A DNA stretch of 25,730 nucleotides from a virus (lineage: Duplodnaviria; Heunggongvirae; Uroviricota; Caudoviricetes): the IMG/VR virus record IMGVR_UViG_2706794664_000009, one strand, 5' to 3'. Positions 3,138-23,806 of the stretch are shown one piece after another (the first letter of the stretch is position 1; each line of letters opens with the position of its first letter). The notes below the pieces were generated by a model that saw only the letters and a list, made by a program, of their open reading frames with translations, searched no databases and was not told where the DNA came from. The translations under genes and the position numbers were made by a program.

Positions 3138-3692
3138 TCAGCCAACAAATTTAGCAACAAATACAGCAACCGCCGCTGTGAAAATGGTTGTGCACACTGG
3201 CACAATAATGCCACTCCAACGCCACTTCGTATTATCATCAACCTTGTCAAACCGCCGATTCATCTCATCCATAATCTTGTCAAAGCGTTTATCCATCGCT
3301 TCGGTAAGCTCACCCTTCAGGCTGTTAATGTCTGATTTGAGCTGCTCTTTCAGGTTAGCTGTATCAGATTTAAGCTCACCTTTCAGATTCGCAATATCGC
3401 ATTCAAGATCACCTTTCAGATGTGCTATGTCTGCTTTGAGTTCACCTTTCACCTCACCAACATCGGCTTTAGTTGAGAGGTTTGTAGTGCGTTCAGCAAG
3501 CGTCGCAAGGTCGTTTCTTGTTAGCGATAAATCACCTTCGAGCCGCTCAATTCGCCTTTCAAGTTTATCTGACATTCCGCCTCCACTACTGCCGCCATCG
3601 CCACCATGATAAAGCACATCACGCTCAGAATGCGACACACTACCTGCTGAATTACCGAAAAGATTTCTTGCTACATTACCCATTATCACCAT
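3138..3692 (-). CDS. Coiled-coil protein with tandem 11-residue repeats and a C-terminal hydrophobic anchor; function unknown
   Basis: ORF with repeats LKGELKADIAH / LKGDLECDIAN / LKGELKSDTAN / LKEQLKSDINS and a C-terminal TM-like segment (IIVPVCTTIFTAAVAVFVAKFVG). An alternative start at 3575 (MSDKLERR) has a GGAGG 4 nt upstream. The region is AT-rich relative to the phage structural genes. Confidence 0.55.
   Translation of the reverse strand: MVIMGNVARNLFGNSAGSVSHSERDVLYHGGDGGSSGGGMSDKLERRIERLEGDLSLTRNDLATLAERTTNLSTKADVGEVKGELKADIAHLKGDLECDIANLKGELKSDTANLKEQLKSDINSLKGELTEAMDKRFDKIMDEMNRRFDKVDDNTKWRWSGIIVPVCTTIFTAAVAVFVAKFVG
3300..3455. repeat. Five tandem 33-bp direct repeats inside the coiled-coil ORF
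   Basis: The motif agctcacc(t/c)ttcag recurs with ends at 3320, 3353, 3386, 3419 and 3452, an exact 33-bp period that encodes the 11-residue protein repeats. Confidence 0.7.
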
Positions 3693-4005
3693 CCTGCGCT
3701 TTGTCTTTCTCCAACCACTTCAGCACCGCAGACGTACGATAAAGGCTCAGGTAACCACAATTCAGGCAATGCAGCGTGTAATAAGTTTTGCGCATATCAG
3801 GTATGCTCTTAACATCACCCAAAAAAGCATAAGATACATAATGCTTTATGTTCTCTTTAATTAACTCACTCTGTTCCTCCAGGGGTAGATTGTTAAAATT
3901 TTCTGGTTTCTTATTTTTATCCCAGCAAAGATCCATACTTTCTGGAACAGATAATCGCGACGATCCACATGAAGGGCAGACACTGGAGACCCCCTTCTCA
4001 GACAA
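3676..4005 (-). CDS. Small zinc-ribbon protein (CPSCG ... CLNCG); function unknown
   Basis: 109-aa ORF with two CxxC pairs. The called start is TTG at 4005 and the frame is open into the masked run, so the true 5' end may lie inside 4022-4252. Its stop overlaps the long form of the downstream coiled-coil ORF. Confidence 0.45.
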   Translation of the reverse strand: MSEKGVSSVCPSCGSSRLSVPESMDLCWDKNKKPENFNNLPLEEQSELIKENIKHYVSYAFLGDVKSIPDMRKTYYTLHCLNCGYLSLYRTSAVLKWLEKDKAQDGDNG

Positions 4006-4252
4006 GAAACGGAAGAAGATTNNNNNNNNNNNNNNNNNNNNNNNNNNNNNNNNNNNNNNNNNNNNNNNNNNNNNNNNNNNNNNNNNNNNNNNNNNNNNNN
4101 NNNNNNNNNNNNNNNNNNNNNNNNNNNNNNNNNNNNNNNNNNNNNNNNNNNNNNNNNNNNNNNNNNNNNNNNNNNNNNNNNNNNNNNNNNNNNNNNNNNN
4201 NNNNNNNNNNNNNNNNNNNNNNNNNNNNNNNNNNNNNNNNNNNNNNNNNNNN

Positions 4253-7933: not shown

Positions 7934-10761
7934 ATGACGGCAGAGTACATCAGGGACTGGCAACAACCGCGCCANNNNNNNNNNNNNNNNNNNNNNNNNN
8001 NNNNNNNNNNNNNNNNNNNNNNNNNNNNNNNNNNNNNNNNNNNNNNNNNNNNNNNNNNNNNNNNNNNNNNNNNNNNNNNNNNNNNNNNNNNNNNNNNNNN
8101 NNNNNNNNNNNNNNNNNNNNNNNNNNNNNNNNNNNNNNNNNNNNNNNNNNNNNNNNNNNNNNNNNNNNNNNNNNNNNNNNNNNNNNNNNNNNNNNNNNNN
8201 NNNNNNNNNNNNNNNNNNNNNNNNTGCGCCTGCTGCCGTCCTATCTGCGCGATCCGCTTATTCGCCACCTCTCCTTCCTGCGCAAAAAACAGGAAGCCGA
8301 TCGCCGGAAAGGCAAAAAGAGCTGGCAGGCGGAACGCTATGCACGCGGAACCCTGCGCAAAATATTCGAACGTCTGGATCGCACTGACGGACACTGGCTG
8401 ACACCGGGTTATCGCTCCCTTGCCGGACGTGAACGCCTGGACGATTTGCTTTACCTGCCGCAACTCAACAAACACCAGATACAGACGCTGGCCACCATGA
8501 CGGCGGCGATGTTCAGCAGCACCTTCGAAAAACTCTGCGATGGTTTTGGCGCGACTGATGGCGAGCTGACCATGGATGTAACGCTGAAGGCGTATCAGAT
8601 GCTGGCCCGCATGGCGTTACACTTACACGCCATGCCTCCGCATTATGACGCACTGACAACAGACAAAGACCGGAGGCACGAACCGGACACAGAACTGCTG
8701 CCGGGCGCAATCCTTCGCCTGACCTGTGCGGAATGGTGGAAACGCAAACTGTGGCTGTTACGTTGCGAGTGGAGAGAAGAACAACTTCGCGCCGCCTGTC
8801 TGGTTTCCAGAAAAACATCGCCCTATCTGAGCCAGGACGCGTTAAGCGAGTTTCGCGCACAGCGCGAGAAAACACGCGATTTCCTGAAAAGTTTCATGCT
8901 GGAAAATGAAGACGGGTTCACGATTGATCTCGAGACGGTGTATTACGCGGGAGTAAGTAACCCGGTTCACCGTAAGGCAGAAATGATGGCCACCATGAAG
9001 GGGCTGGAACTTCTGGCCGAAGCCCGTGGCGACAAAGCGGTGTTTCTGACTGTCACCTGCCCGTCAAAATACCACGCCACAACGGAGAACGGTCATCCGA
9101 ATCCCAAATGGAACGGGGCCACAATGCGCGACTCCAGCGATTACCTGGTTAACACGTTTTTTGCGACGGTCCGCAAAAAACTGAACCGCGACGGCCTGCG
9201 CTGGTATGGCATCCGCACGGCGGAGCCTCACCATGACGGCACCGTGCACTGGCATATGATGGTCTTTGCTCATCCGGAAGAAATCGACACCATTGTGTCC
9301 CACACCCGCGATATTGCCATTCAGGAAGATCGTCACGAGCTGGGCGATGACATAACTCCGCGCTTTAAGGCGGAGTATGTAGACGGCTCAAAAGGCACGC
9401 CAACCAGCTACATCGCCACCTACATCGGGAAAAACCTGGACAGCCGCGCCGTGGATGGCATCGACCCGAAAACGGGCAAGCCACGCGTTGACCACGAAAC
9501 CGGAAAATCAATGGCCGAGAGCGTGGAACGCGCCATCGGCTGGGCGCGCCTTCACCGGGTCCGCCAGTTCCAGTTCTTTGGCATCCCCTCCCGCCAGGTA
9601 TGGCGTGAACTGCGCCGCCTTGCCAGCCAGATGGCACGCAACCCGGAAAGCCCGCAACGGCTGAAGGATGACGCAATGGATGCGGTTCTTGCCGCCGCTG
9701 ATGCCGGATGTTTTGCCACCTACATAGAGAAACAGGGCGGCGTACTTGTTCCACGCAAAGACTACCTGATTCGCACCGCCTACGACCTCGCCGATGAGCT
9801 GAACGATTACGGCGAACAGAGCGTACAGATTTACGGGATCTGGTCACCACTCATCGGGGAATCCTCCCGTGTGTGCACGCATCCGGATAACTGGAAGCTG
9901 GTAAGACGCAAACCGGAAGCGGAAGACAGCGCCCGCGAAAATGGTTTTGACCTTCAGGGCGGCCCTGCCGCCCCTTGGACTCGTGGCAATAACTGTCCCC
10001 GTGTACAGGAAACGGACAACAACGGGACAGAACAGCCGGAAGAACGGCCAGCACCGTGGCCGCAGCTCCCTGACGGCGTTGATGTGGATGAATGGATGCG
10101 CTCACTGAAACGGCACGAACGCCGGGCGCTGATGCGTTCGCTTCGTGACAAACAGGCAAAAAACAGCAGTGATGAAATGCAGAGCTGGACACAGAGCCGC
10201 AAACAGCAGCGGCCTTTGCCTGATAACCACGAATTACTCGCTAAAGAATGGCGGGAGTCTGCTGAATCTCTCGGCCTGCATATCGGTGAACAACAGATGC
10301 AGCACCTGTTACGGGGCGGCAGTCTGTACGTTGACGGCAGCATCATTGCACCGCAGGGATTTGAAATTGTACGCAAACCGGATACCCGCCCGGACAGCCG
10401 AATCACGCAGCTCTGGCAGCGCCTGAGCCGTAATCATGGCGTAAGCAGCACGGAGATCCGCCATAACCCGGTCGCCAGCTATCTGACACAGCTGGGGGCA
10501 TCAGACCCTGAAGCCGCCGCACGCCTGGCATCCACACTTCAGCAGGACCAGAACACCATGAAAACACCCGTTACCGTGCTTTCTGACATGCTGCGCGCCA
10601 TCCGCGACGCAGAGCACGCACAGAGAATCAGTGAAACCACTGAACGCGCCCGCCGCAAAGCAGACCTGCTGCGGGGTGGCCTGACCAGTGGAAACAAAAA
10701 ACAGACAGAAACGGGACTCACGAATCCCGTAAATGAGCAAAAAACGCGCAGCGATATATGA
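7934..10761 (+). CDS. A: P2 gpA-type rolling-circle replication initiator (interrupted by masked run 7975-8224)
   Basis: Long frame 8227-10761 carries an HUH motif (VHWHMMVFAH) and a catalytic Tyr pair (SYIATYIGKN, YxxxY as in phiX174 gpA and P2 A). Likely start is ATG 7934; the frame on either side of the gap differs by 1, read as gap-length imprecision. Confidence 0.85.
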
Positions 10762-10803
10762 AGCGCGCACAAAACAGGCAAAAACGGGATTTCAGAATCC
10801 CGT
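10711..10803. promoter_or_regulatory. Two palindromic 20-bp repeats upstream of the parM-like gene (candidate operator or centromere-like site)
   Basis: acgggactcacgaatcccgt (10711-10730) and acgggatttcagaatcccgt (10784-10803), each an inverted repeat ACGGGAy-N6-ATCCCGT with conserved flanks (aaACGGGA ... ATCCCGTAAA). Copy 1 lies in the last codons of gene A; copy 2 is 35 nt before the parM-like ATG. Confidence 0.4.
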
Positions 10804-10837
10804 AAACGATTAATTAATCAACATAAGGAAAAGCGAC

Positions 10838-11814
10838 ATGAAAATTTGTATCGACGACGGCTCCACCAACATCAAGCTGGCATGGACTGAGAACGGCGAA
10901 CGCCGCAACGCCATCAGCCCGAACAGCTTCAAGTCGGAATGGTCTGCGCCGTTCGGTGGCATGCAGCCCGCGAACTACATNNNNNNNNNNNNNNNNNNNN
11001 NNNNNNNNNNNNNNNNNNNNNNNNNNNNNNNNNNNNNNNNNNNNNNNNNNNNNNNNNNNNNNNNNNNNNNNNNNNNNNNNNNNNNNNNNNNNNNNNNNNN
11101 NNNNNNNNNNNNNNNNNNNNNNNNNNNNNNNNNNNNNNNNNNNNNNNNNNNNNNNNNNNNNNNNNNNNNNNNNNNNNNNNNNNNNNNNNNNNNNNNNNNN
11201 NNNNNNNNNNNNNNNNNNNNNNNNNNNNNNNNNNNNNNNNNNNNNACCAGAACGGCGAAGCATTCACTATCCGTAACGTGCGGGTTATGCCTGAATCCAT
11301 TCCGGCTGGCTTTAAGGCACTGGCTGACATGAGTCCGTTTGAATCCCTGCTGATTGTGGATTTGGGCGGAACCACGCTGGATGTGGCAAAGGTTCAGGGG
11401 CAACTGGCAGGTATCAGCCAGGTGTTTTGCGATCCACACGTAGGCGTTTCTCTGATGGCCGATGCCGTACTGTCGGTGATGGCCACTAACGGTATGCGCA
11501 CCAGTCACCACATCGCCAATACCATTATCGAACATCGCCATGATGAAGCCTGGCTGCGCCAGCACATCCACAATGACGCGCATTACGCCAGCCTGATGGC
11601 GGTTATTCGTGAAAAGGAAGAAACACTGAAACAACGCGTGATCCGCGCGCTGGCGGGTTTTTCGGGTTACGGGCGGGTGATGGTTGTCGGTGGAGGGGCG
11701 GAGATTGTGGCACCCGCTATCCGCGAAGCCTGCGGAGTTAATGCGACTTTCATCGCGGACGGGGTGCCACAGTTTGCTCTGGTTAATGGGCTGTACGCAA
11801 TGGACAAGGAGTAA
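10838..11814 (+). CDS. parM: ParM/StbA-like actin-type ATPase (interrupted by masked run 10981-11245)
   Basis: N-terminus MKICIDDGSTNIKLAW ... ISPNSFKSEW resembles plasmid R1 ParM as recalled. Downstream blocks also match (DLGGTTLD, GISQVFCDPHVGVSL, GFSGYGRVMVVGGGAEI, LVNGLYAM). Total span is about 325 codons versus about 320 aa for ParM. Confidence 0.8.
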
Positions 11815-11818
11815 ACCA

Positions 11819-12130
11819 ATGACGACACCAACCAGACGGATAAGTTTCTATCTGAAGCCTGCGGCCGTCAAGAACGAAAGCGAAGCATGCGCCTGGCTGG
11901 GCAGCCTTACACCAGAAGCCCGCAAAAGCGGCCAACGCGTGGCTTTTCTGGCCGGGCTGGCACTTCTGAAAATGAATCCAGCAGAGGCTTACCGACTGGC
12001 TGCATGGGCTGACGATGAGGCGTTATCGGTGACACAAACCAGGACAGAACGCCCCGTGCCACAGCCAGTACCAACCGCACAGATAACCAGTCAGATAGCA
12101 GGGAATATCCGGGCATTATTTCCTGAATGA
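11819..12130 (+). CDS. parR: ParR-like small DNA-binding protein (putative partition or operator adaptor)
   Basis: 103-aa ORF starting 5 nt after the parM-like stop, with AAGGAG upstream. Local resemblance to recalled R1 ParR (RISFYLKP; QRVAFLAGLALLKMNP versus NRAALTAGLALYRQDP; NIRALFPE versus NILRSLFPKE). Weaker evidence than for parM. Confidence 0.55.
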   Translation: MTTPTRRISFYLKPAAVKNESEACAWLGSLTPEARKSGQRVAFLAGLALLKMNPAEAYRLAAWADDEALSVTQTRTERPVPQPVPTAQITSQIAGNIRALFPE

Positions 12131-12190: not shown

Positions 12191-12715
12191 ATGAAAAAAT
12201 ACGAATACATGCTAATGAAAGAAGCACTGCGGGCTGGTCTGGCTCCCTGTCCTGTATCCGTAGAAGCTGTTGTTGGGAACACGATTTTCCGAACGCTGCG
12301 AAATCGCGTATCCGTGAAGATGGTTCACCAACCACCCAAATCTACCAGCATGATCTATCTGCCGCTGCCCGAGGCTATCAAACTTATGCGTTCGCTGAAA
12401 TTTGCGATTTGGATGCAGACACAAATCAACAAAGCGGTGCAAAACACCTTCGTTAAGAGACTAATACCGGAGCTTGCTGCCAGATGTGCAAAATGTACCA
12501 GACCCGCACTTCAATTTGATCTGTCATTGATTCAACAAGCTACGGAGGCAGAACTGTACCGCCTGTCACCTATCCGTGATGCTCACACGGAAGCATCAGA
12601 AATGTTCCGGCTCATGTTTCAATTTAATTTTGCCGTTCGACGCACACGCGTTCAGGTCAATCGCATGATGCAGGAGCAGGAAGAGTTAACACAGTACAAA
12701 GGGGGCAGCCAGTGA
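12191..12715 (+). CDS. Hypothetical 174-aa protein; first gene of an accessory operon in the tin/old-equivalent locus
   Basis: GAGGA Shine-Dalgarno 8 nt upstream of the ATG. I recognise no motif or family. The region is AT-richer by eye than the phage structural genes. Confidence 0.55.
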   Translation: MKKYEYMLMKEALRAGLAPCPVSVEAVVGNTIFRTLRNRVSVKMVHQPPKSTSMIYLPLPEAIKLMRSLKFAIWMQTQINKAVQNTFVKRLIPELAARCAKCTRPALQFDLSLIQQATEAELYRLSPIRDAHTEASEMFRLMFQFNFAVRRTRVQVNRMMQEQEELTQYKGGSQ

Positions 12716-12951
12716 GTAATTCAGCACGACTACAGCTTGGTTTTTCACCGCTATCAAAAACCATCGTATTGGCAAAAATGCGTGACTTAGGAGACGGAAC
12801 AAAACGCCGCGTAGGAAATGATCGCGGTCGCGATGTAACCAACGAGGCCGCTCAACTCGTTTGGCATCTAGTCATGGCAGAAGGCGGTGAAATTAATTGG
12901 GAGCTGGATGATGGTTCTCGTATGATTTTGAGGGCCGAGAAGAGTAAATAG
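12712..12951 (+). CDS. Hypothetical 79-aa protein, translationally coupled to the upstream gene
   Basis: GTG start overlaps the upstream TGA (GTGA) and a G-rich stretch precedes it. No recognisable motif. Confidence 0.4.
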   Translation: MSNSARLQLGFSPLSKTIVLAKMRDLGDGTKRRVGNDRGRDVTNEAAQLVWHLVMAEGGEINWELDDGSRMILRAEKSK

Positions 12952-12965
12952 CTCAAGGGGGATTA

Positions 12966-13151
12966 ATGCTAAATGATGATGAAGAAGAGCTGCTTATGCA
13001 GGAATGGTCGCTCGGTGATTATGATAATGGTGAAAATGGGTGCCCGCATTGTGGCCGTTATCGTTTATGTATCTGCCAGAATGGAAAACACAGATGTGAA
13101 AAGTGCAATTGGTCTCCGGAACTTAATGACTACGTGCCGATCGAGTGGTAG
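12966..13151 (+). CDS. Small zinc-finger protein (61 aa)
   Basis: Acidic N-terminus, then CPHCG ... CICQNGKHRCEKC, giving six Cys and one His. Starts 14 nt after the upstream gene and is the last gene before the cos region. Confidence 0.45.
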   Translation: MLNDDEEELLMQEWSLGDYDNGENGCPHCGRYRLCICQNGKHRCEKCNWSPELNDYVPIEW

Positions 13152-13642
13152 AGGTAAGTCACACTAGGTGTTTTTTAGTTGATTTTATAAATGCACAATA
13201 GTGCACAAATTTGCACAATTTTTTTGAACGACTTTTTGCCCTTCCGGCCCGCGTGGCGGCTGGATCCGTCAAGGATCCGTGCATGCACAAAAAAACGCGT
13301 TTTTTCTGCGCGCAGGTGACGGGGGAACAGCCCGCGTTTCAGGGGGTAAATAGCATTCCCTGAACGATGTCGCAGAGATACAACAGAATGGCTGTATTTC
13401 TCACGCTGAGCGTGAAAAAGACGTGAGGGCTTTTGATTTGATGGGGTGAAAGGTAAGGCCGTCAAAATCGCACTGAGACGGCGAGAATATGCAGTCAACG
13501 AGGTGGGATTGCGTAAGAGTCTGACTGTCGATGATGGCAATCAGCAGGAAAGCGTCGTGAAATTATCTGACTGATACAGGAGCTGGAGAGTCGGGGCATA
13601 AATTTTTTATGCCCCGGCGAAGCAGCAGACAAGCGAAGCGCG
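13152..13642. other. Non-coding region in the P2 cos position, between the accessory locus and gene Q
   Basis: About 490 bp without a convincing ORF. Contains three TGCACAA(T) repeats (13190-13220), a perfect palindrome AAAAAAACGCGTTTTTT (about 13290-13307), a GGATCCGT direct repeat, GC-rich segments loosely like the P2/186 cos core, and a strong hairpin near 13590-13612. Exact cos ends were not identified. Confidence 0.4.
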
Positions 13643-14689
13643 TCAGGATGTGGGCTGGGTGTCTAACAGTGCGTAAGGGTTAAAGCGGATCACCTCTTCG
13701 CCAAGCCAGTCATTGATGTGCTTCATGGCCTCCATGACGGGCATCAGCTCGTTAATTGCGTAAACCCGCGCGGCCTTCTCCACATCACCAAACGCACTTT
13801 TTTCGCCCGGCATCGCCCCCATCAGTTGCGGCGGAACGCGGTGCGCAGCCAGCACATCATCACGGGATGCCGCCTTAACATTCATGAACTCATCCTTTGC
13901 GGTGATCTGCTGGAACGGCAAAATTTGCACCCCCTCTTTGCCCCCGTTGGGCGCATGAATGAGCACGTTTTTAAACGCACCACCACCACGTGCCCCCTGT
14001 AGCGTTTCTTTCAGGGAGTCCATGCTTTCGCGGTTTACCTGCGCTGCACCGATGTAGATGATGCACCCGGCGTGGGATCCGTTGTCGTAGTACAGTTTTC
14101 TGAACATGTCCGCCGAATGAGAAAGGCTGGCCGAGAGTAATGCGCCAAGATATTCCGGCATGCCGTAGATTTCCTGGTTAATATCCGGATTCATCAGGTG
14201 GCACACTTTGCCAGGACGAAACTGAAACGCATCCTTGCCATCCTGCACATACCACCATGATTCAAGATCGCTTCCGCGTCGCATGTATTTCGCCAGGGCG
14301 TGCCGTAATTTAAGCGGTTCGCCGAGCATATTGCTCCGAAGCTCAAGGAATGCGTTACCGAACACAAACCAGTCCAGCGCCAGCGCCGAGAAATCCTGCC
14401 GGGAAAGCAGCGGGTGCGGAATATAGCAGCCGAGCAATACATTGCGCTTAAAGTAAAGCGCAGACTGATGCCAGGACGTTTGCCGGGCAGCTCTTGCCAG
14501 ACCGTACCAGTCCACCGGGGTTTCATACCACCGCCCGTTATCAGCACAGTACATATTGTCCAGCAGGTCATGCCCGGTCAGGCGGTAAGGACCATCAAAT
14601 GTGAATGCACTGAGCGACGATTCTTTCCTGAGCGCATCAGCGAGATCAATGCGTGAACTCATGCGCACTTTTTTATTTTTTCTGCTCAT
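13643..14689 (-). CDS. Q: Portal protein (P2 gpQ homolog)
   Basis: 348-aa ORF, size and position as P2 gpQ (about 344 aa), downstream of and 1-nt overlapping the terminase gene, adjacent to the cos region. Confidence 0.9.
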   Translation of the reverse strand: MSRKNKKVRMSSRIDLADALRKESSLSAFTFDGPYRLTGHDLLDNMYCADNGRWYETPVDWYGLARAARQTSWHQSALYFKRNVLLGCYIPHPLLSRQDFSALALDWFVFGNAFLELRSNMLGEPLKLRHALAKYMRRGSDLESWWYVQDGKDAFQFRPGKVCHLMNPDINQEIYGMPEYLGALLSASLSHSADMFRKLYYDNGSHAGCIIYIGAAQVNRESMDSLKETLQGARGGGAFKNVLIHAPNGGKEGVQILPFQQITAKDEFMNVKAASRDDVLAAHRVPPQLMGAMPGEKSAFGDVEKAARVYAINELMPVMEAMKHINDWLGEEVIRFNPYALLDTQPTS

Positions 14690-16268: not shown

Positions 16269-16618
16269 NNNNNNNNNNNNNNNNNNNNNNNNNNNNNNNN
16301 NNNNNNNNNNNNNNNNNNNNNNNNNNNNNNNNNNNNNNNNNNNNNNNNNNNNNNNNNNNNNNNNNNNNNNNNNNNNNNNNNNNNNNNNNNNNNNNNNNNN
16401 NNNNNNNNNNNNNNNNNNNNNNNNNNNNNNNNNNNNNNNNNNNNNNNNNNNNNNNNNNNNNNNNNNNNNNNNNNNNNNNNNNNNNNNNNNNNNNNNNNNN
16501 NNNNNNNNNNNNNNNNNNNNNNNNNNNNNNNNNNNNNTTTCTTACAACAAAAGCCCTTTGTATCAGCCTGTTACGCTTTGCCATCATGACTGAAGAACCA
16601 GTCAGAGGGGCAAAAACT

Positions 16619-17478: not shown

Positions 17479-18455
17479 ATGAATCTGGTGATGTCAGATA
17501 TTACCCGCAACAAGCTGGGTTGCTATATGGCGCAGCAGGCGTCGCTTAACAATATCCCGGTTTCTGCACTGGTATCGCGATTTACCGTGGAACCTGCGGT
17601 GCAGCAACGTTTTGAAAACGCCTCAAAGGATAGCACCGAACTTACAAAAAAAATTAACGTGATCGGCGTGACCGACCAGAAAGGCGAAAAAATCCTCCTG
17701 GACACCACAGGACCGATTGCACGCACAAATACCAGTTATGACGGAACAAAACGCCGTAACCCGAATAACGTGGTTGATCTGAAAAACCGCAAATACCAGT
17801 GCGAACANNNNNNNNNNNNNNNNNNNNNNNNNNNNNNNNNNNNNNNNNNNNNNNNNNNNNNNNNNNNNNNNNNNNNNNNNNNNNNNNNNNNNNNNNNNNN
17901 NNNNNNNNNNNNNNNNNNNNNNNNNNNNNNNNNNNNNNNNNNNNNNNNNNNNNNNNNNNNNNNNNNNNNNNNNNNNNNNNNNNNNNNNNNNNNNNNNNNN
18001 NNNNNNNNNNNNNNNNNNNNNNNNNNNNNNNNNNNNNNNNNNNNNNNNNNNNNNNNNNNNNNNNNNNNACGTGACGCTGACTTCCCGCAACATGGACAAC
18101 ACCGTGGCGCACGCGGGTAAATACGCGAACCCTGATGCACTGGTACAGGACGCGCGCTCATCTCTGCTGGATGAATGGCACAAGGAAGCTGACGACCTCG
18201 TGGTGATTATGGGGCGCAACCTGTTTAACTCGCTGCGTCTGCCAGTGCTGAACAGCATCAGCGGCCAGAATCCCAATGCGGAATTACTTGCCGGGCAGCT
18301 CATCCTGTCATCGCGCACCATTGGCGGGCTGGGTGTGTTCCTTGCACCGTTCTTCCCGGATGCAACGATGCTGATCACCTCATTCAACAACCTGTCGATT
18401 TACTGGCAGAAAGGTTCAATGCGTCGTCTGATGAAAGACGAACCGGAATACAACC
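17479..18455 (+). CDS. N: Major capsid protein (P2 gpN homolog); internal masked run 17808-18068 and 3' end inside 18456-18709
   Basis: AGGAG RBS; matches recalled P2 gpN before and after the internal gap (RFTVEPAVQQ; RKYQCE; DLVVIMGRNL; PDATMLITSFNNLSIYW). Confidence 0.9.
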
Positions 18456-18709
18456 NNNNNNNNNNNNNNNNNNNNNNNNNNNNNNNNNNNNNNNNNNNNN
18501 NNNNNNNNNNNNNNNNNNNNNNNNNNNNNNNNNNNNNNNNNNNNNNNNNNNNNNNNNNNNNNNNNNNNNNNNNNNNNNNNNNNNNNNNNNNNNNNNNNNN
18601 NNNNNNNNNNNNNNNNNNNNNNNNNNNNNNNNNNNNNNNNNNNNNNNNNNNNNNNNNNNNNNNNNNNNNNNNNNNNNNNNNNNNNNNNNNNNNNNNNNNN
18701 NNNNNNNNN

Positions 18710-22612: not shown

Positions 22613-23211
22613 GCGCAGAACTCATGCGACTGCTGAGCAATATCATCCGCACCGGGATCATCTCTGAAGTTGATGAGGAATCCTGGTGCGTGCGCGTTCG
22701 CAGCGGCGAACTGGAAACAGGCTGGCTGCGCTGGAACACCACGCGCGCGGGAGACNNNNNNNNNNNNNNNNNNNNNNNNNNNNNNNNNNNNNNNNNNNNN
22801 NNNNNNNNNNNNNNNNNNNNNNNNNNNNNNNNNNNNNNNNNNNNNNNNNNNNNNNNNNNNNNNNNNNNNNNNNNNNNNNNNNNNNNNNNNNNNNNNNNNN
22901 NNNNNNNNNNNNNNNNNNNNNNNNNNNNNNNNNNNNNNNNNNNNNNNNNNNNNNNNNNNNNNNNNNNNNNNNNNNNNNNNNNNNNNNNNNNNNNNNNNNN
23001 NNNNNNNNNNNNNNNNNNNNNNNNNNNNNNGCCTGTCGTGGAATGCACAGACCTTCTGAGAACAGCGACGCTTGACGTCACAAAAGGGGGAACGATGAGC
23101 GGCAATATCACGCACAGCGGCGGCGATTTCACCTCAAACGGCATCACAGTGCATACGCATAAGCACGGTGGCGTTAAAGGTGGCAGCGATTCGACAGGAG
23201 GCCCGCAGTGA
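22609..23211 (+). CDS. V: Baseplate spike / assembly protein (P2 gpV homolog); internal masked run 22756-23030
   Basis: Same frame on both sides of the gap. Gly-rich C-terminus (HTHKHGGVKGGSDSTGGPQ). Position between S and W. Confidence 0.8.
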   Translation: MSAELMRLLSNIIRTGIISEVDEESWCVRVRSGELETGWLRWNTTRAGDXXXXXXXXXXXXXXXXXXXXXXXXXXXXXXXXXXXXXXXXXXXXXXXXXXXXXXXXXXXXXXXXXXXXXXXXXXXXXXXXXXXXXXXXXXXXPVVECTDLLRTATLDVTKGGTMSGNITHSGGDFTSNGITVHTHKHGGVKGGSDSTGGPQ

Positions 23212-23549: not shown

Positions 23550-23806
23550 NNNNNNNNNNNNNNNNNNNNNNNNNNNNNNNNNNNNNNNNNNNNNNNNNNN
23601 NNNNNNNNNNNNNNNNNNNNNNNNNNNNNNNNNNNNNNNNNNNNNNNNNNNNNNNNNNNNNNNNNNNNNNNNNNNNNNNNNNNNNNNNNNNNNNNNNNNN
23701 NNNNNNNNNNNNNNNNNNNNNNNNNNNNNNNNNNNNNNNNNNNNNNNNNNNNNNNNNNNNNNNNNNNNNNNNNNNNNNNNNNNNNNNNNNNNNNNNNNNN
23801 NNNNNG

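What the first reader, a model, noticed from the sequence alone, without database searches (positions are those of the whole stretch)
10838..12130. parMR-like actin-type partition module inside an integrated P2-like prophage
The locus after gene A is the canonical P2 accessory slot (orf91-tin-old), which other peduoviruses fill with diverse anti-phage systems. Here it starts with a clear ParM/StbA-family ATPase and a ParR-like partner. A plasmid-type segregation system in a chromosomally integrated phage is unexpected. It could reflect plasmid-derived cargo or a capacity for extrachromosomal maintenance, or the actin-like ATPase could be co-opted as part of a larger system with the three downstream genes.
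Basis: partly seen in the sequence, partly recalled or inferred. Interest (0 to 1): 0.7.

Follow-up and report, generated by a model that had tools for sequence, protein, structure and literature searches.

The report
ParM/ParR partition genes in P88-like prophage
The window carries a real plasmid-type (actin-like ParM plus ParR) DNA-partition gene pair. It is a fixed, conserved part of P88-like P2-family prophages of E. coli, it is already annotated and briefly noted in the literature, and its role in the phage life cycle has never been tested.

Summary
parM (10838-11814, partly masked) and parR (11819-12130) lie between replication gene A and the portal gene of a P88-like (Xuanwuvirus) prophage integrated beside btuC. 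Pfam scores are very strong, and ParM aligns over its full length with plasmid R1 ParM (PDB 1mwk, E=9e-93). The apparent frame break across the N-run is a masking artefact. Relatives 97-98% identical in DNA encode an intact 319-aa ParM.

The pair is not swappable hotspot cargo. It stays constant next to gene A while the genes after parR vary. It occurs in 1285 of 5426 complete E. coli genomes, almost always on the chromosome. ParM relatives 54-63% identical sit at the same position in P2-like prophages of four other genera, whereas the closest plasmid ParMs reach only 52%. parM dN/dS is 0-0.19. No iteron array is present. The only candidate ParR sites are two GGGA..TCCC dyads 73 bp apart.

My best guess is that it positions or segregates the circular extrachromosomal phage genome after infection or induction, like AlpAC of prophage CGP3 or srpMRC of SXT/R391 elements. 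Stable plasmid lysogeny is a weaker rival.

The parts
7934..10761 (+). Gene A (replication endonuclease, P88 type). It is partly masked (7975-8224), and its last codons overlap repeat 1.
   Evidence: Annotated as replication endonuclease in relatives. tblastn gives 95-98% identity to P88-type gpA in 12 phage records and 86% in the two records of phage 503458. Other P2-like gpA proteins are below 47% and align only to residues 1-627 of the visible 771.
10695..10736 (.). Repeat 1 of a 42-nt direct repeat. It contains the dyad ACGGGACTCACGAATCCCGT (10711-10730). It is a candidate ParR-binding site (parC/operator) and alternatively a leftward terminator.
   Evidence: the repeat finder D1/I1. The motif occurs only twice in the window, with 0 expected by chance, and only twice in the whole prophage L004. 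It folds at -9 to -10 kcal/mol. On the minus strand it looks like a terminator.
10768..10809 (.). Repeat 2 (81% identical to repeat 1) in the A-parM intergenic region. Its dyad is ACGGGATTTCAGAATCCCGT (10784-10803), 73 bp from repeat 1.
   Evidence: The region is nearly invariant in seven E. coli-type loci whichever ParR allele is present. A two-site layout with 72-bp spacing and a shared CGGGA core is seen in Plesiomonas and, by inspection, in Hafnia.
10838..11814 (+). parM, an actin-like ATPase of the ParM/StbA family. Bases 10981-11245 are masked, so the frame offset across the mask is an artefact.
   Evidence: Pfam StbA_N plus ParM C-terminal domain. The relative aligns full-length with R1 ParM, PDB 1mwk, E=9e-93. 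phrog_691 'partition protein'. Visible residues are 234/235 identical to the intact 319-aa relative, with nucleotide-binding motifs present. dN/dS is 0-0.19.
11819..12130 (+). parR, a 103-aa ParR/StbB-family adaptor with a conserved N-terminal segment (RRISFYLKP) and C-terminal tail (NIRALFPE).
   Evidence: PF10784, 2e-23. phrog_2515. The N-terminal motif and the C-terminal N-[AI]-x-x-[LM]-F motif are conserved in phage, ICE and plasmid ParRs. A second allele, 52% identical, keeps both ends.
12191..13151 (+). Variable cargo of the A-Q hotspot, not part of the partition module. It holds a 174-aa ORF (12191-12715, no family), a 79-aa DUF7446 protein (12712-12951) and a 61-aa zinc-ribbon-like protein (12966-13151).
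   Evidence: Pfam and PHROGs, with no PADLOC match. Homology with EA2 ends at 12716 and with P88 at 12128. Other relatives carry different genes here. The distance from parR to the portal gene ranges from 1.0 to 4.2 kb in 62 loci.
13643..14689 (-). Portal gene Q, the right-hand border of the hotspot. The cos region lies between 13151 and 13643.
   Evidence: Annotated as phage portal protein in relatives. Placing cos here rests on the known P2 genome organisation as described in PMC9122126.

Best explanation
This is a genuine type II (actin-like) partition gene pair. It is a fixed backbone component of P88-like (Xuanwuvirus) and related P2-family phages and lies between replication gene A and the variable A-Q hotspot.

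Shown:
- ParM has the full ParM fold signature and nucleotide-binding motifs.
- ParR has the family's conserved N-terminal segment and the conserved C-terminal tail.
- Both genes are under purifying selection, and their position is syntenic across genera.

Inferred mechanism:
1. The genes are transcribed in the same direction as gene A, probably as a continuation of the early (replication) operon. They would then be made after infection or induction rather than in the repressed lysogen.
2. ParR dimers bind the two GGGA..TCCC dyads immediately upstream of parM.
3. ParM-ATP filaments are capped by ParR-DNA complexes and push sister phage circles apart.
4. P2-type phages replicate as monomeric circles (background knowledge). 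The system would therefore spread or position replicating and packaging-substrate circles, and would keep a not-yet-integrated or freshly excised genome from being lost at cell division.

This is the role shown for AlpAC in prophage CGP3 and for srpMRC in SXT/R391 elements.
For: Identity of the genes.

Constant while the neighbours vary. In the 80 IMG/VR loci, parM was intact in 80/80 and gpA lay upstream in 78/80, with the other two cut at contig ends.

Linkage to the replication gene in sequenced phages: the same 14 records carry ParM and P88-type gpA, and 370 other gpA-bearing phage records have no ParM.

Deep conservation in phage context: ParM relatives 54-63% identical in Plesiomonas, Hafnia, Serratia and Enterobacter all lie in the order gpA, parM, parR, cargo, portal. 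Relatives at 50% identity or less lie in an ICE or an integrated plasmid. The phage-context proteins cluster in a neighbour-joining tree.

Purifying selection: parM dN/dS 0-0.19 and parR 0.14-0.39.

Cis elements: two copies only, at a conserved 72-73 bp spacing in two genera.

Transcription: no plus-strand terminator or consensus promoter was predicted between A and parM.

Precedents: AlpAC is required for efficient CGP3 replication and is induced early (PMC4446434). srpMRC stabilises the excised form of an integrating element (PMC4489591).
Against: - No experiment on this system was found in the searched library.
- There is no classical iteron array, only two dyads, and those also look like leftward terminators. 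A functional centromere is therefore unproven.
- The promoter scan is crude. It also missed the expected promoter in a plasmid control, so co-transcription with A is an inference.
- Sizeable clonal groups carry truncated parM: a 229-aa frameshift cluster with 649 members and a 188-aa cluster with 555 members. The gene is therefore dispensable for the resident prophage.
- The masked 265 bases prevent proof that this copy is intact.
Confidence: 0.5

Rival explanations
1. Facultative plasmid lysogeny. parMR, together with gene A replication, would let these phages persist stably as low-copy plasmids instead of or alongside integration. This is the suggestion made by Rousset et al. 2022.
For: - The suggestion is in PMC9122126.
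- One PLSDB record (NZ_CP148288.1, 34,461 bp, circular) is the entire phage genome closed at the int/methylase junction.
- Some relatives also carry a hok/gef killer gene, the other type of plasmid stability locus.
Against: - 1424 of 1426 parMR places in complete E. coli genomes are chromosomal.
- Of the 7 plasmid records that match, most are 227 kb to 1.4 Mb replicons or fragments.
- A contiguous attP junction of that integrase type was found in 0 of 432 genomes.
- Every lineage examined keeps an integrase.
- In P2-type phages gene A is in the repressed early operon (background knowledge), so a repressed prophage should not replicate.
- The single circular record lacks several essential genes in its gene table, so it may be a poor assembly or an induced culture.
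Confidence: 0.15
2. The 42-nt repeats are not a centromere. They would be tandem leftward intrinsic terminators that shield the early operon from antisense transcription coming out of the hotspot. ParR would then have no parC here and would act, if at all, only as a regulator, or it would bind elsewhere.
For: - Both hairpins are followed by T-runs on the minus strand and were called as terminators.
- Their stability is -10.2 kcal/mol.
- Minus-strand terminator-like hairpins also lie upstream of parM in Serratia and Enterobacter.
- Cargo genes are often on the minus strand.
Against: - The equivalent Plesiomonas and Hafnia repeats keep the two-site layout and the GGG/CCC half-sites, but they have only 3-4 bp stems and no T-run.
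- Terminators placed upstream of parM would not protect parMR itself.
- A dyad can serve as both a terminator and a binding site.
Confidence: 0.2
3. The pair serves the host or competes with other elements. It could exclude plasmids or related phages through partition incompatibility, or it could be one component of an anti-phage system with the downstream genes.
For: The locus borders a known defence hotspot (PMC9122126). The adjacent cargo in relatives includes KAP NTPase, HicAB and DUF4760 genes.
Against: - No PADLOC match for ParM, ParR or the three downstream proteins.
- The downstream genes are not conserved with parMR.
- Plasmid ParMs are at most 52% identical, and their centromeres are different iteron arrays, so cross-talk is unlikely.
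Confidence: 0.07
4. The pair is a functionless relic of an old plasmid-phage recombination that is carried along passively.
For: Truncated parM alleles exist in large clonal groups.
Against: - dN/dS is 0-0.19.
- ParM was intact in 10/10 fetched loci and 80/80 IMG/VR loci. The latter set is biased toward best matches.
- Across genera ParM is more conserved (54-63%) than the flanking gpA (30-64%) and portal (30-47%).
- ParR keeps both functional ends even in the divergent allele.
Confidence: 0.08

Closest known systems
ParMRC (parA/stb locus) of plasmids R1/NR1, the archetypal type II partition system
   Same: ParM aligns over its full length with R1 ParM, at E=9e-93 and roughly 50% identity by eye, with identical phosphate-binding, catalytic and adenosine motifs. 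ParR belongs to the same Pfam family, PF10784. The gene order parM-parR with the cis site upstream is the same.
   Different: - It resides in an integrating tailed phage, not a plasmid.
- The upstream region is only 76 nt of intergenic DNA and holds two dyads. Plasmid relatives have arrays of short iterons spread over 200 bp or more.
- ParR is shorter, at 103 aa.
- ParM forms a separate phage clade.
'Putative plasmid partitioning system' in about a quarter of E. coli P2-like phages (Rousset et al. 2022, PMC9122126)
   Same: This is the same gene pair at the same gpA-gpQ locus. My count of 1285/5426 genomes (24%) agrees with theirs.
   Different: They list it among hotspot systems and give it one sentence. 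This analysis shows it is lineage-fixed at the edge of the hotspot and not exchangeable cargo. It also adds the cross-genus synteny, the ParR alleles and the candidate cis sites.
AlpC/AlpA/alpS of Corynebacterium glutamicum prophage CGP3 (PMC4446434, PMC5539076)
   Same: It is an actin-like ATPase plus a DNA-binding adaptor encoded by an integrated prophage. The adaptor binds upstream of its own operon. The genes are induced early and are needed for efficient phage DNA replication. This is the functional model adopted here.
   Different: There is no close sequence relationship. The Pfam ALP_N match is only 1.4e-05 and falls below the cut-off. The host, phage type and adaptor family are different. 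The function of the E. coli system is untested.
srpMRC of SXT/R391 integrative conjugative elements (PMC4489591)
   Same: It is a type II partition system in an element that normally sits in the chromosome, and it stabilises the transient circular form.
   Different: It belongs to a conjugative element, not a virus, and SrpM/SrpR are only distantly related to R1 ParMR. The phage ParM is much closer to R1.
StbA-type partition locus of the P1-like phage-plasmid D6
   Same: It is the only other ParM homologue found among 50,697 phage records, at 48% identity.
   Different: D6 is an obligate plasmid prophage, where partition is expected. P88-like phages integrate.

Membership tests
Type II (ParMRC) partition system | Actin-fold ATPase of the ParM/StbA family with intact nucleotide-binding and hydrolysis motifs | tested here: met
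   Pfam StbA_N 1.8e-82 plus ParM C-terminal domain 1.3e-68. Full-length alignment to R1 ParM structures. DDGSTN, MPESIPAG, DLGGTTLD and GGGAE are present in the visible window sequence. The central 84 or so residues of this copy are masked.
Type II (ParMRC) partition system | Small ParR/StbB adaptor encoded immediately downstream of parM | tested here: met
   PF10784, 2e-23, covering 71 of 72 model positions. phrog_2515. The gap to parM is 4 nt. The N-terminal R-[RK]-I-x-F-Y-L-x-P segment is conserved with plasmid and ICE ParRs. No solved structure matched by sequence, and the fold was not predicted.
Type II (ParMRC) partition system | ParR C-terminal tail that contacts ParM | tested here: inconclusive
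   A C-terminal N-[AI]-x-x-[LM]-F motif is conserved in both phage alleles and in plasmid and ICE ParRs. That this tail binds ParM is known for R1 from background knowledge only. Binding was not tested here.
Type II (ParMRC) partition system | Array of multiple tandem iterons (parC) upstream of parM | tested here: not met
   There are only two 42-nt repeats with dyads, 73 bp apart. The same search finds multi-copy iterons upstream of plasmid-type parM in L017 and L100.
Type II (ParMRC) partition system | A cis-acting site bound by ParR that confers stable inheritance on a replicon | not testable with these tools
   The candidate sites are 10711-10730 and 10784-10803. EMSA and plasmid-stability assays are needed.
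P2 A-Q hotspot cargo / anti-phage defence system | Presence or absence varies among otherwise closely related phages | tested here: not met
   parMR is constant while the genes after it change. It is present in 14 of 14 phage records with P88-type gpA.
P2 A-Q hotspot cargo / anti-phage defence system | Similarity to known defence proteins | tested here: not met
   No PADLOC-DB match at E<=0.1 for ParM, ParR or the three downstream proteins.
Phage-plasmid (plasmid prophage) | The genome is found as an autonomous replicon in its hosts | tested here: not met
   There are 1424 chromosomal and 2 plasmid places in complete E. coli genomes. The attP junction is contiguous in 0 of 432 genomes. One exception is a 34.5-kb circular record.
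AlpAC-like prophage cytoskeletal system | Early induction after excision and a requirement for efficient phage replication | not testable with these tools
   Only indirect support is available: same orientation as gene A, and no predicted terminator or promoter between them. Transcriptomics and deletion mutants are needed.

The most novel reading that the evidence does not exclude
P88-like phages would use a plasmid-type actin spindle with a minimal two-dyad centromere as part of their replication module, to move or segregate circular phage genomes after infection or induction, or even to persist for generations as an unintegrated episome. This would be the first demonstrated role of a canonical ParMRC system in the life cycle of an integrating tailed coliphage, in an element present in about a quarter of E. 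coli genomes.
Probability: 0.4. Interest if true: 0.6.

Novelty: already known. Interest (0 to 1): 0.35.

Why it matters
About 24% of complete E. coli genomes, including ST131, O157:H7 and O26 strains, carry this module inside a P2-family prophage, yet nobody has tested what it does. Two integrating elements (prophage CGP3 and SXT/R391 ICEs) have been shown to need actin-like partition systems for their extrachromosomal phase. Showing the same for a genetically tractable coliphage would give a simple model for how viruses organise their DNA inside bacterial cells. It would also help define the boundary between prophages and phage-plasmids. For hotspot surveys it matters in a practical way, because parMR should be treated as the conserved left border of the A-Q hotspot in this lineage and not as one of its cargo systems.

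Tried and rejected
- **Frameshifted parM.** Rejected. The seven N-runs that could be measured against relatives (of eight) have lengths unrelated to the real sequence.
- **Defence-system reading.** No PADLOC hits, and the neighbours are not conserved.
- **Recent capture from a plasmid.** Rejected. The best plasmid ParM is 52% identical, with nothing between 60% and 99%.
- **Solved-structure search for ParR.** No sequence match.
- **Rfam scan of the whole window.** No matches.
- **Promoter scan.** Nothing convincing upstream of parM in E. coli, Serratia or Enterobacter. It also missed the expected promoter in a plasmid control, so this is uninformative.
- **Species-representative genome scan.** It returned only three near-identical loci. 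Divergent relatives had to be reached through the protein database.
- **IMG/VR scan.** The best 80 loci were all 99-100% identical. They were useful for counting but not for diversity.
- **Search for further copies of the dyad elsewhere in the prophage.** None found.
- **Literature searches for a functional study of this system.** None found.
- **Not attempted.** Structure prediction of ParR and ParM.

Full report
**What is there.** The stretch 10838-12130 holds two co-oriented genes. parM runs 10838-11814, with 10981-11245 masked. parR runs 11819-12130. parR starts 4 nt after the parM stop, and parM starts 76 nt after the stop of replication gene A. Pfam gives StbA_N at 1.4e-19 for the 47 visible N-terminal residues. 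It gives the ParM C-terminal domain at 3.5e-69 for the 188 visible C-terminal residues. It gives PF10784 (Plasmid_stab_B) at 2e-23 for ParR over the whole model. PHROGs files both as 'partition protein'. The full-length protein of a 98%-identical relative aligns end to end with plasmid R1 ParM structures (1mwk and others, E=9e-93). The phosphate-1, catalytic, phosphate-2 and adenosine motifs are identical.

**The mask.** The two flanks of the N-run are in different frames, which would suggest a disrupted gene. The seven N-runs that could be measured against near-identical relatives (of eight) all differ from the true length. The parM run is 265 N against 248 real bases. The other offsets are +5 in gene A, +24 in the terminase gene, and +19, -39, +21 and +35 elsewhere. 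Run length therefore carries no information. The visible ParM residues are 234/235 identical to an intact 319-aa protein. Ten relatives that I fetched and 80 IMG/VR loci all have an intact 960-bp parM. Whether this particular copy is intact inside the mask cannot be settled from the window.

**Context.** The window begins with host genes nlpC-btuD-btuE-btuC. These are followed by an integrase, a repressor, early genes, gene A, parMR, three small genes, and then portal, terminase and the morphogenesis genes. The element is a P88-like phage (genus Xuanwuvirus, Peduoviridae). Phage P88 and its relatives match at 94-97% nucleotide identity.

**Backbone component, not cargo.**
- Homology to E. coli EA2 runs through parMR to 12716, and homology to P88 stops at 12128, right after parR.
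- O26, O157:H7, ST131 and O111 prophages keep parMR but carry different genes between parR and the portal gene.
- In 62 IMG/VR loci the distance from parR to the portal gene ranges from 1.0 to 4.2 kb.
- Among 50,697 phage records, ParM homologues occur only in 14 P88-like records and in the phage-plasmid D6.
- Those same 14 records are the only ones with a P88-type gene A. The other 370 gpA-bearing records are below 47% identical and have no ParM.
- ParM relatives at 54-63% identity in Plesiomonas, Hafnia, Serratia and Enterobacter all lie in the same order: gpA, parM, parR, cargo, portal/terminase.
- Relatives at 50% identity or less lie in an ICE (Dickeya) or an integrated plasmid (Mangrovibacter).
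- The phage-context proteins cluster together in a neighbour-joining tree, which was not bootstrapped.
- Plasmid ParMs reach at most 52% identity, with an empty gap between 60% and 99%.
- Across genera ParM is more conserved than the flanking gpA and portal proteins.
- dN/dS is 0-0.19 for parM and 0.14-0.39 for parR.

The pair is therefore an old, selected part of this phage lineage. It is not a recent plasmid capture, and it is not one interchangeable hotspot system.

**Frequency and replicon.** The parM-parR DNA is present in 1285 of 5426 complete E. coli genomes, at 1424 chromosomal places and 2 plasmid places. Seven plasmid records match. Most are very large replicons or fragments. One of them, NZ_CP148288.1 (34,461 bp, circular), is the whole phage genome closed at the integrase/methylase junction. 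A contiguous attP junction of that integrase type was found in 0 of 432 genomes. A circular record that starts at the junction would escape this test. Evidence for a plasmid state is therefore anecdotal.

**ParR alleles.** About half of the E. coli copies, including ST131 and O157:H7, carry a second ParR allele only 52% identical. It has an unchanged ParM and unchanged upstream DNA. Residues 1-18 (RRISFYLKP) and the C-terminal NIxxLFPE are retained. The C-terminal N-[AI]-x-x-[LM]-F motif is shared with plasmid and ICE ParRs. This fits the DNA-binding N-terminus and ParM-binding C-terminus known for R1 ParR from background knowledge. The recombination breakpoint of this allele lies inside parR, so hotspot exchanges can reach into the gene.

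**Cis elements.** Plasmid-type loci show multi-copy short iterons upstream of parM. L017 has TTTATCTC units at 11-bp spacing, and L100 has TTGCATTTAT-like units. The phage has nothing like that. It has two copies of a 42-nt repeat (10695-10736 and 10768-10809), each containing the dyad ACGGGAyT..GAATCCCGT, 73 bp apart. The first copy lies inside the last codons of gene A. The motif occurs nowhere else in the prophage. Plesiomonas has two 26-nt repeats 72 bp apart with the same CGGGAC core. Hafnia has two GGGA/TCCC sites at similar spacing. Serratia and Enterobacter have a large inverted repeat instead.

These dyads are the best candidates for ParR binding sites. On the minus strand, however, they are also called as intrinsic terminators, as are hairpins at the same place in Serratia and Enterobacter. 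I rate the parC assignment at roughly even odds.

**Expression.** No plus-strand terminator and no consensus promoter is predicted between gene A and parM. This suggests co-transcription with the early replication operon. The scan is crude and failed on a plasmid control, so this remains an inference.

**Mechanism proposed.** After infection or induction, ParR binds the dyads on circular phage DNA. ParM-ATP filaments capped by ParR-DNA push sister circles apart. P2-type phages replicate as, and package from, monomeric circles (background knowledge). Such a system could distribute replicating genomes and prevent loss of an unintegrated or freshly excised genome at division.

Two precedents exist. 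AlpAC of prophage CGP3 is induced early and is needed for efficient phage replication (PMC4446434). srpMRC stabilises the excised form of SXT/R391 ICEs (PMC4489591). The rivals are stable plasmid lysogeny, the dyads being terminators only, a host-directed or defence role, and a relic. Large clonal groups with truncated parM show that the gene is dispensable for a resident prophage, which is expected if it acts only in the episomal phase. These are a 229-aa frameshift cluster with 649 members and a 188-aa cluster with 555 members.

**What is known already.** RefSeq annotates the genes as 'plasmid segregation protein ParM' and 'plasmid partitioning/stability family protein'. A paper on Citrobacter rodentium prophages lists the homologue as a 'fitness' gene (PMC6456863). 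Rousset et al. [quoted passage not shown] I found no functional study. The library covers open-access papers and bioRxiv only.

**Verdict.** The accessory-cargo and larger-system parts of the interpretation are not supported. This analysis adds several refinements:
- the lineage-fixed status of the pair and its position at the edge of the hotspot;
- its conservation across genera in phage context;
- a separate phage ParM clade;
- two ParR alleles;
- a non-canonical two-dyad cis region.

The biological role remains an open and readily testable question of moderate interest.

Noticed in passing
window N-runs 4022-4252, 7975-8224, 10981-11245, 16269-16537, 17808-18068, 18456-18709, 22756-23030, 23550-23805: Mask lengths do not equal the length of the hidden sequence. 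Offsets against close relatives are +5, +17, +24, +19, -39, +21 and +35 for the seven runs that could be measured (the 4022-4252 run was not), so reading frames across any mask in this window are meaningless.
   Followed up: yes
window 10330-10761 (3' end of gene A): P88-type gpA has a C-terminal extension of about 144 aa. Other P2-family gpA proteins align only to residues 1-627 of the 771 visible residues. The first candidate ParR site lies in its last codons.
   Followed up: partly
window 12191-12715: A 174-aa ORF directly after parR has no Pfam, NCBIfam, PHROG or PADLOC match. It is shared with the E. coli EA2-type prophages but absent from P88, O26, O157 and ST131 relatives.
   Followed up: partly
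window 12716-13190: The DUF7446 gene plus the zinc-ribbon gene (phrog_24897) are not found at this locus in any of the 5426 complete E. coli genomes. The DUF7446 gene matches Yersinia phage vB_YpM_39 at 91% and lambdoid or other phages at 82%. This suggests moron exchange between unrelated phage types.
   Followed up: partly
L003 3556-3696 and 1983-2931; L018 110-1431: Related prophages carry a hok/gef killer gene and a com/mom-like methyltransferase pair near ogr at the far end of the genome. O26 RM8426 has a PIN-domain protein there instead (L004 35500-37002). This looks like a second variable slot. Together with parMR it gives some of these phages both classes of plasmid R1 stability loci.
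   Followed up: no
L018 (NZ_CP148288.1, whole record): A 34,461-bp circular 'plasmid' record is a complete P88-like phage genome closed at the attP side. Several essential genes (portal, sheath, tape measure) are missing from its gene table, so it may be an error-rich assembly or an induced culture.
   Followed up: partly
protein clusters P0010 and P0017: Two large clusters of truncated ParM exist: a 229-aa frameshift form with 649 members and a 188-aa form with 555 members. Both occur on long chromosomal contigs, which indicates clonal lineages with an inactivated parM.
   Followed up: partly
L009 (NZ_JBQPOM010000071.1): A 226-kb contig labelled Vagococcus sp. WN89Y carries this E. coli-type prophage with 98% identical ParM and 99.7% identical portal. 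It is probably a contaminated or mislabelled assembly.
   Followed up: no
window 3138-4176: Two small genes lie between btuC and the integrase: a DUF1640 protein and a hypothetical protein, as annotated in the O26 relative L004. They sit at the attachment-site end of the prophage and may be further cargo.
   Followed up: no
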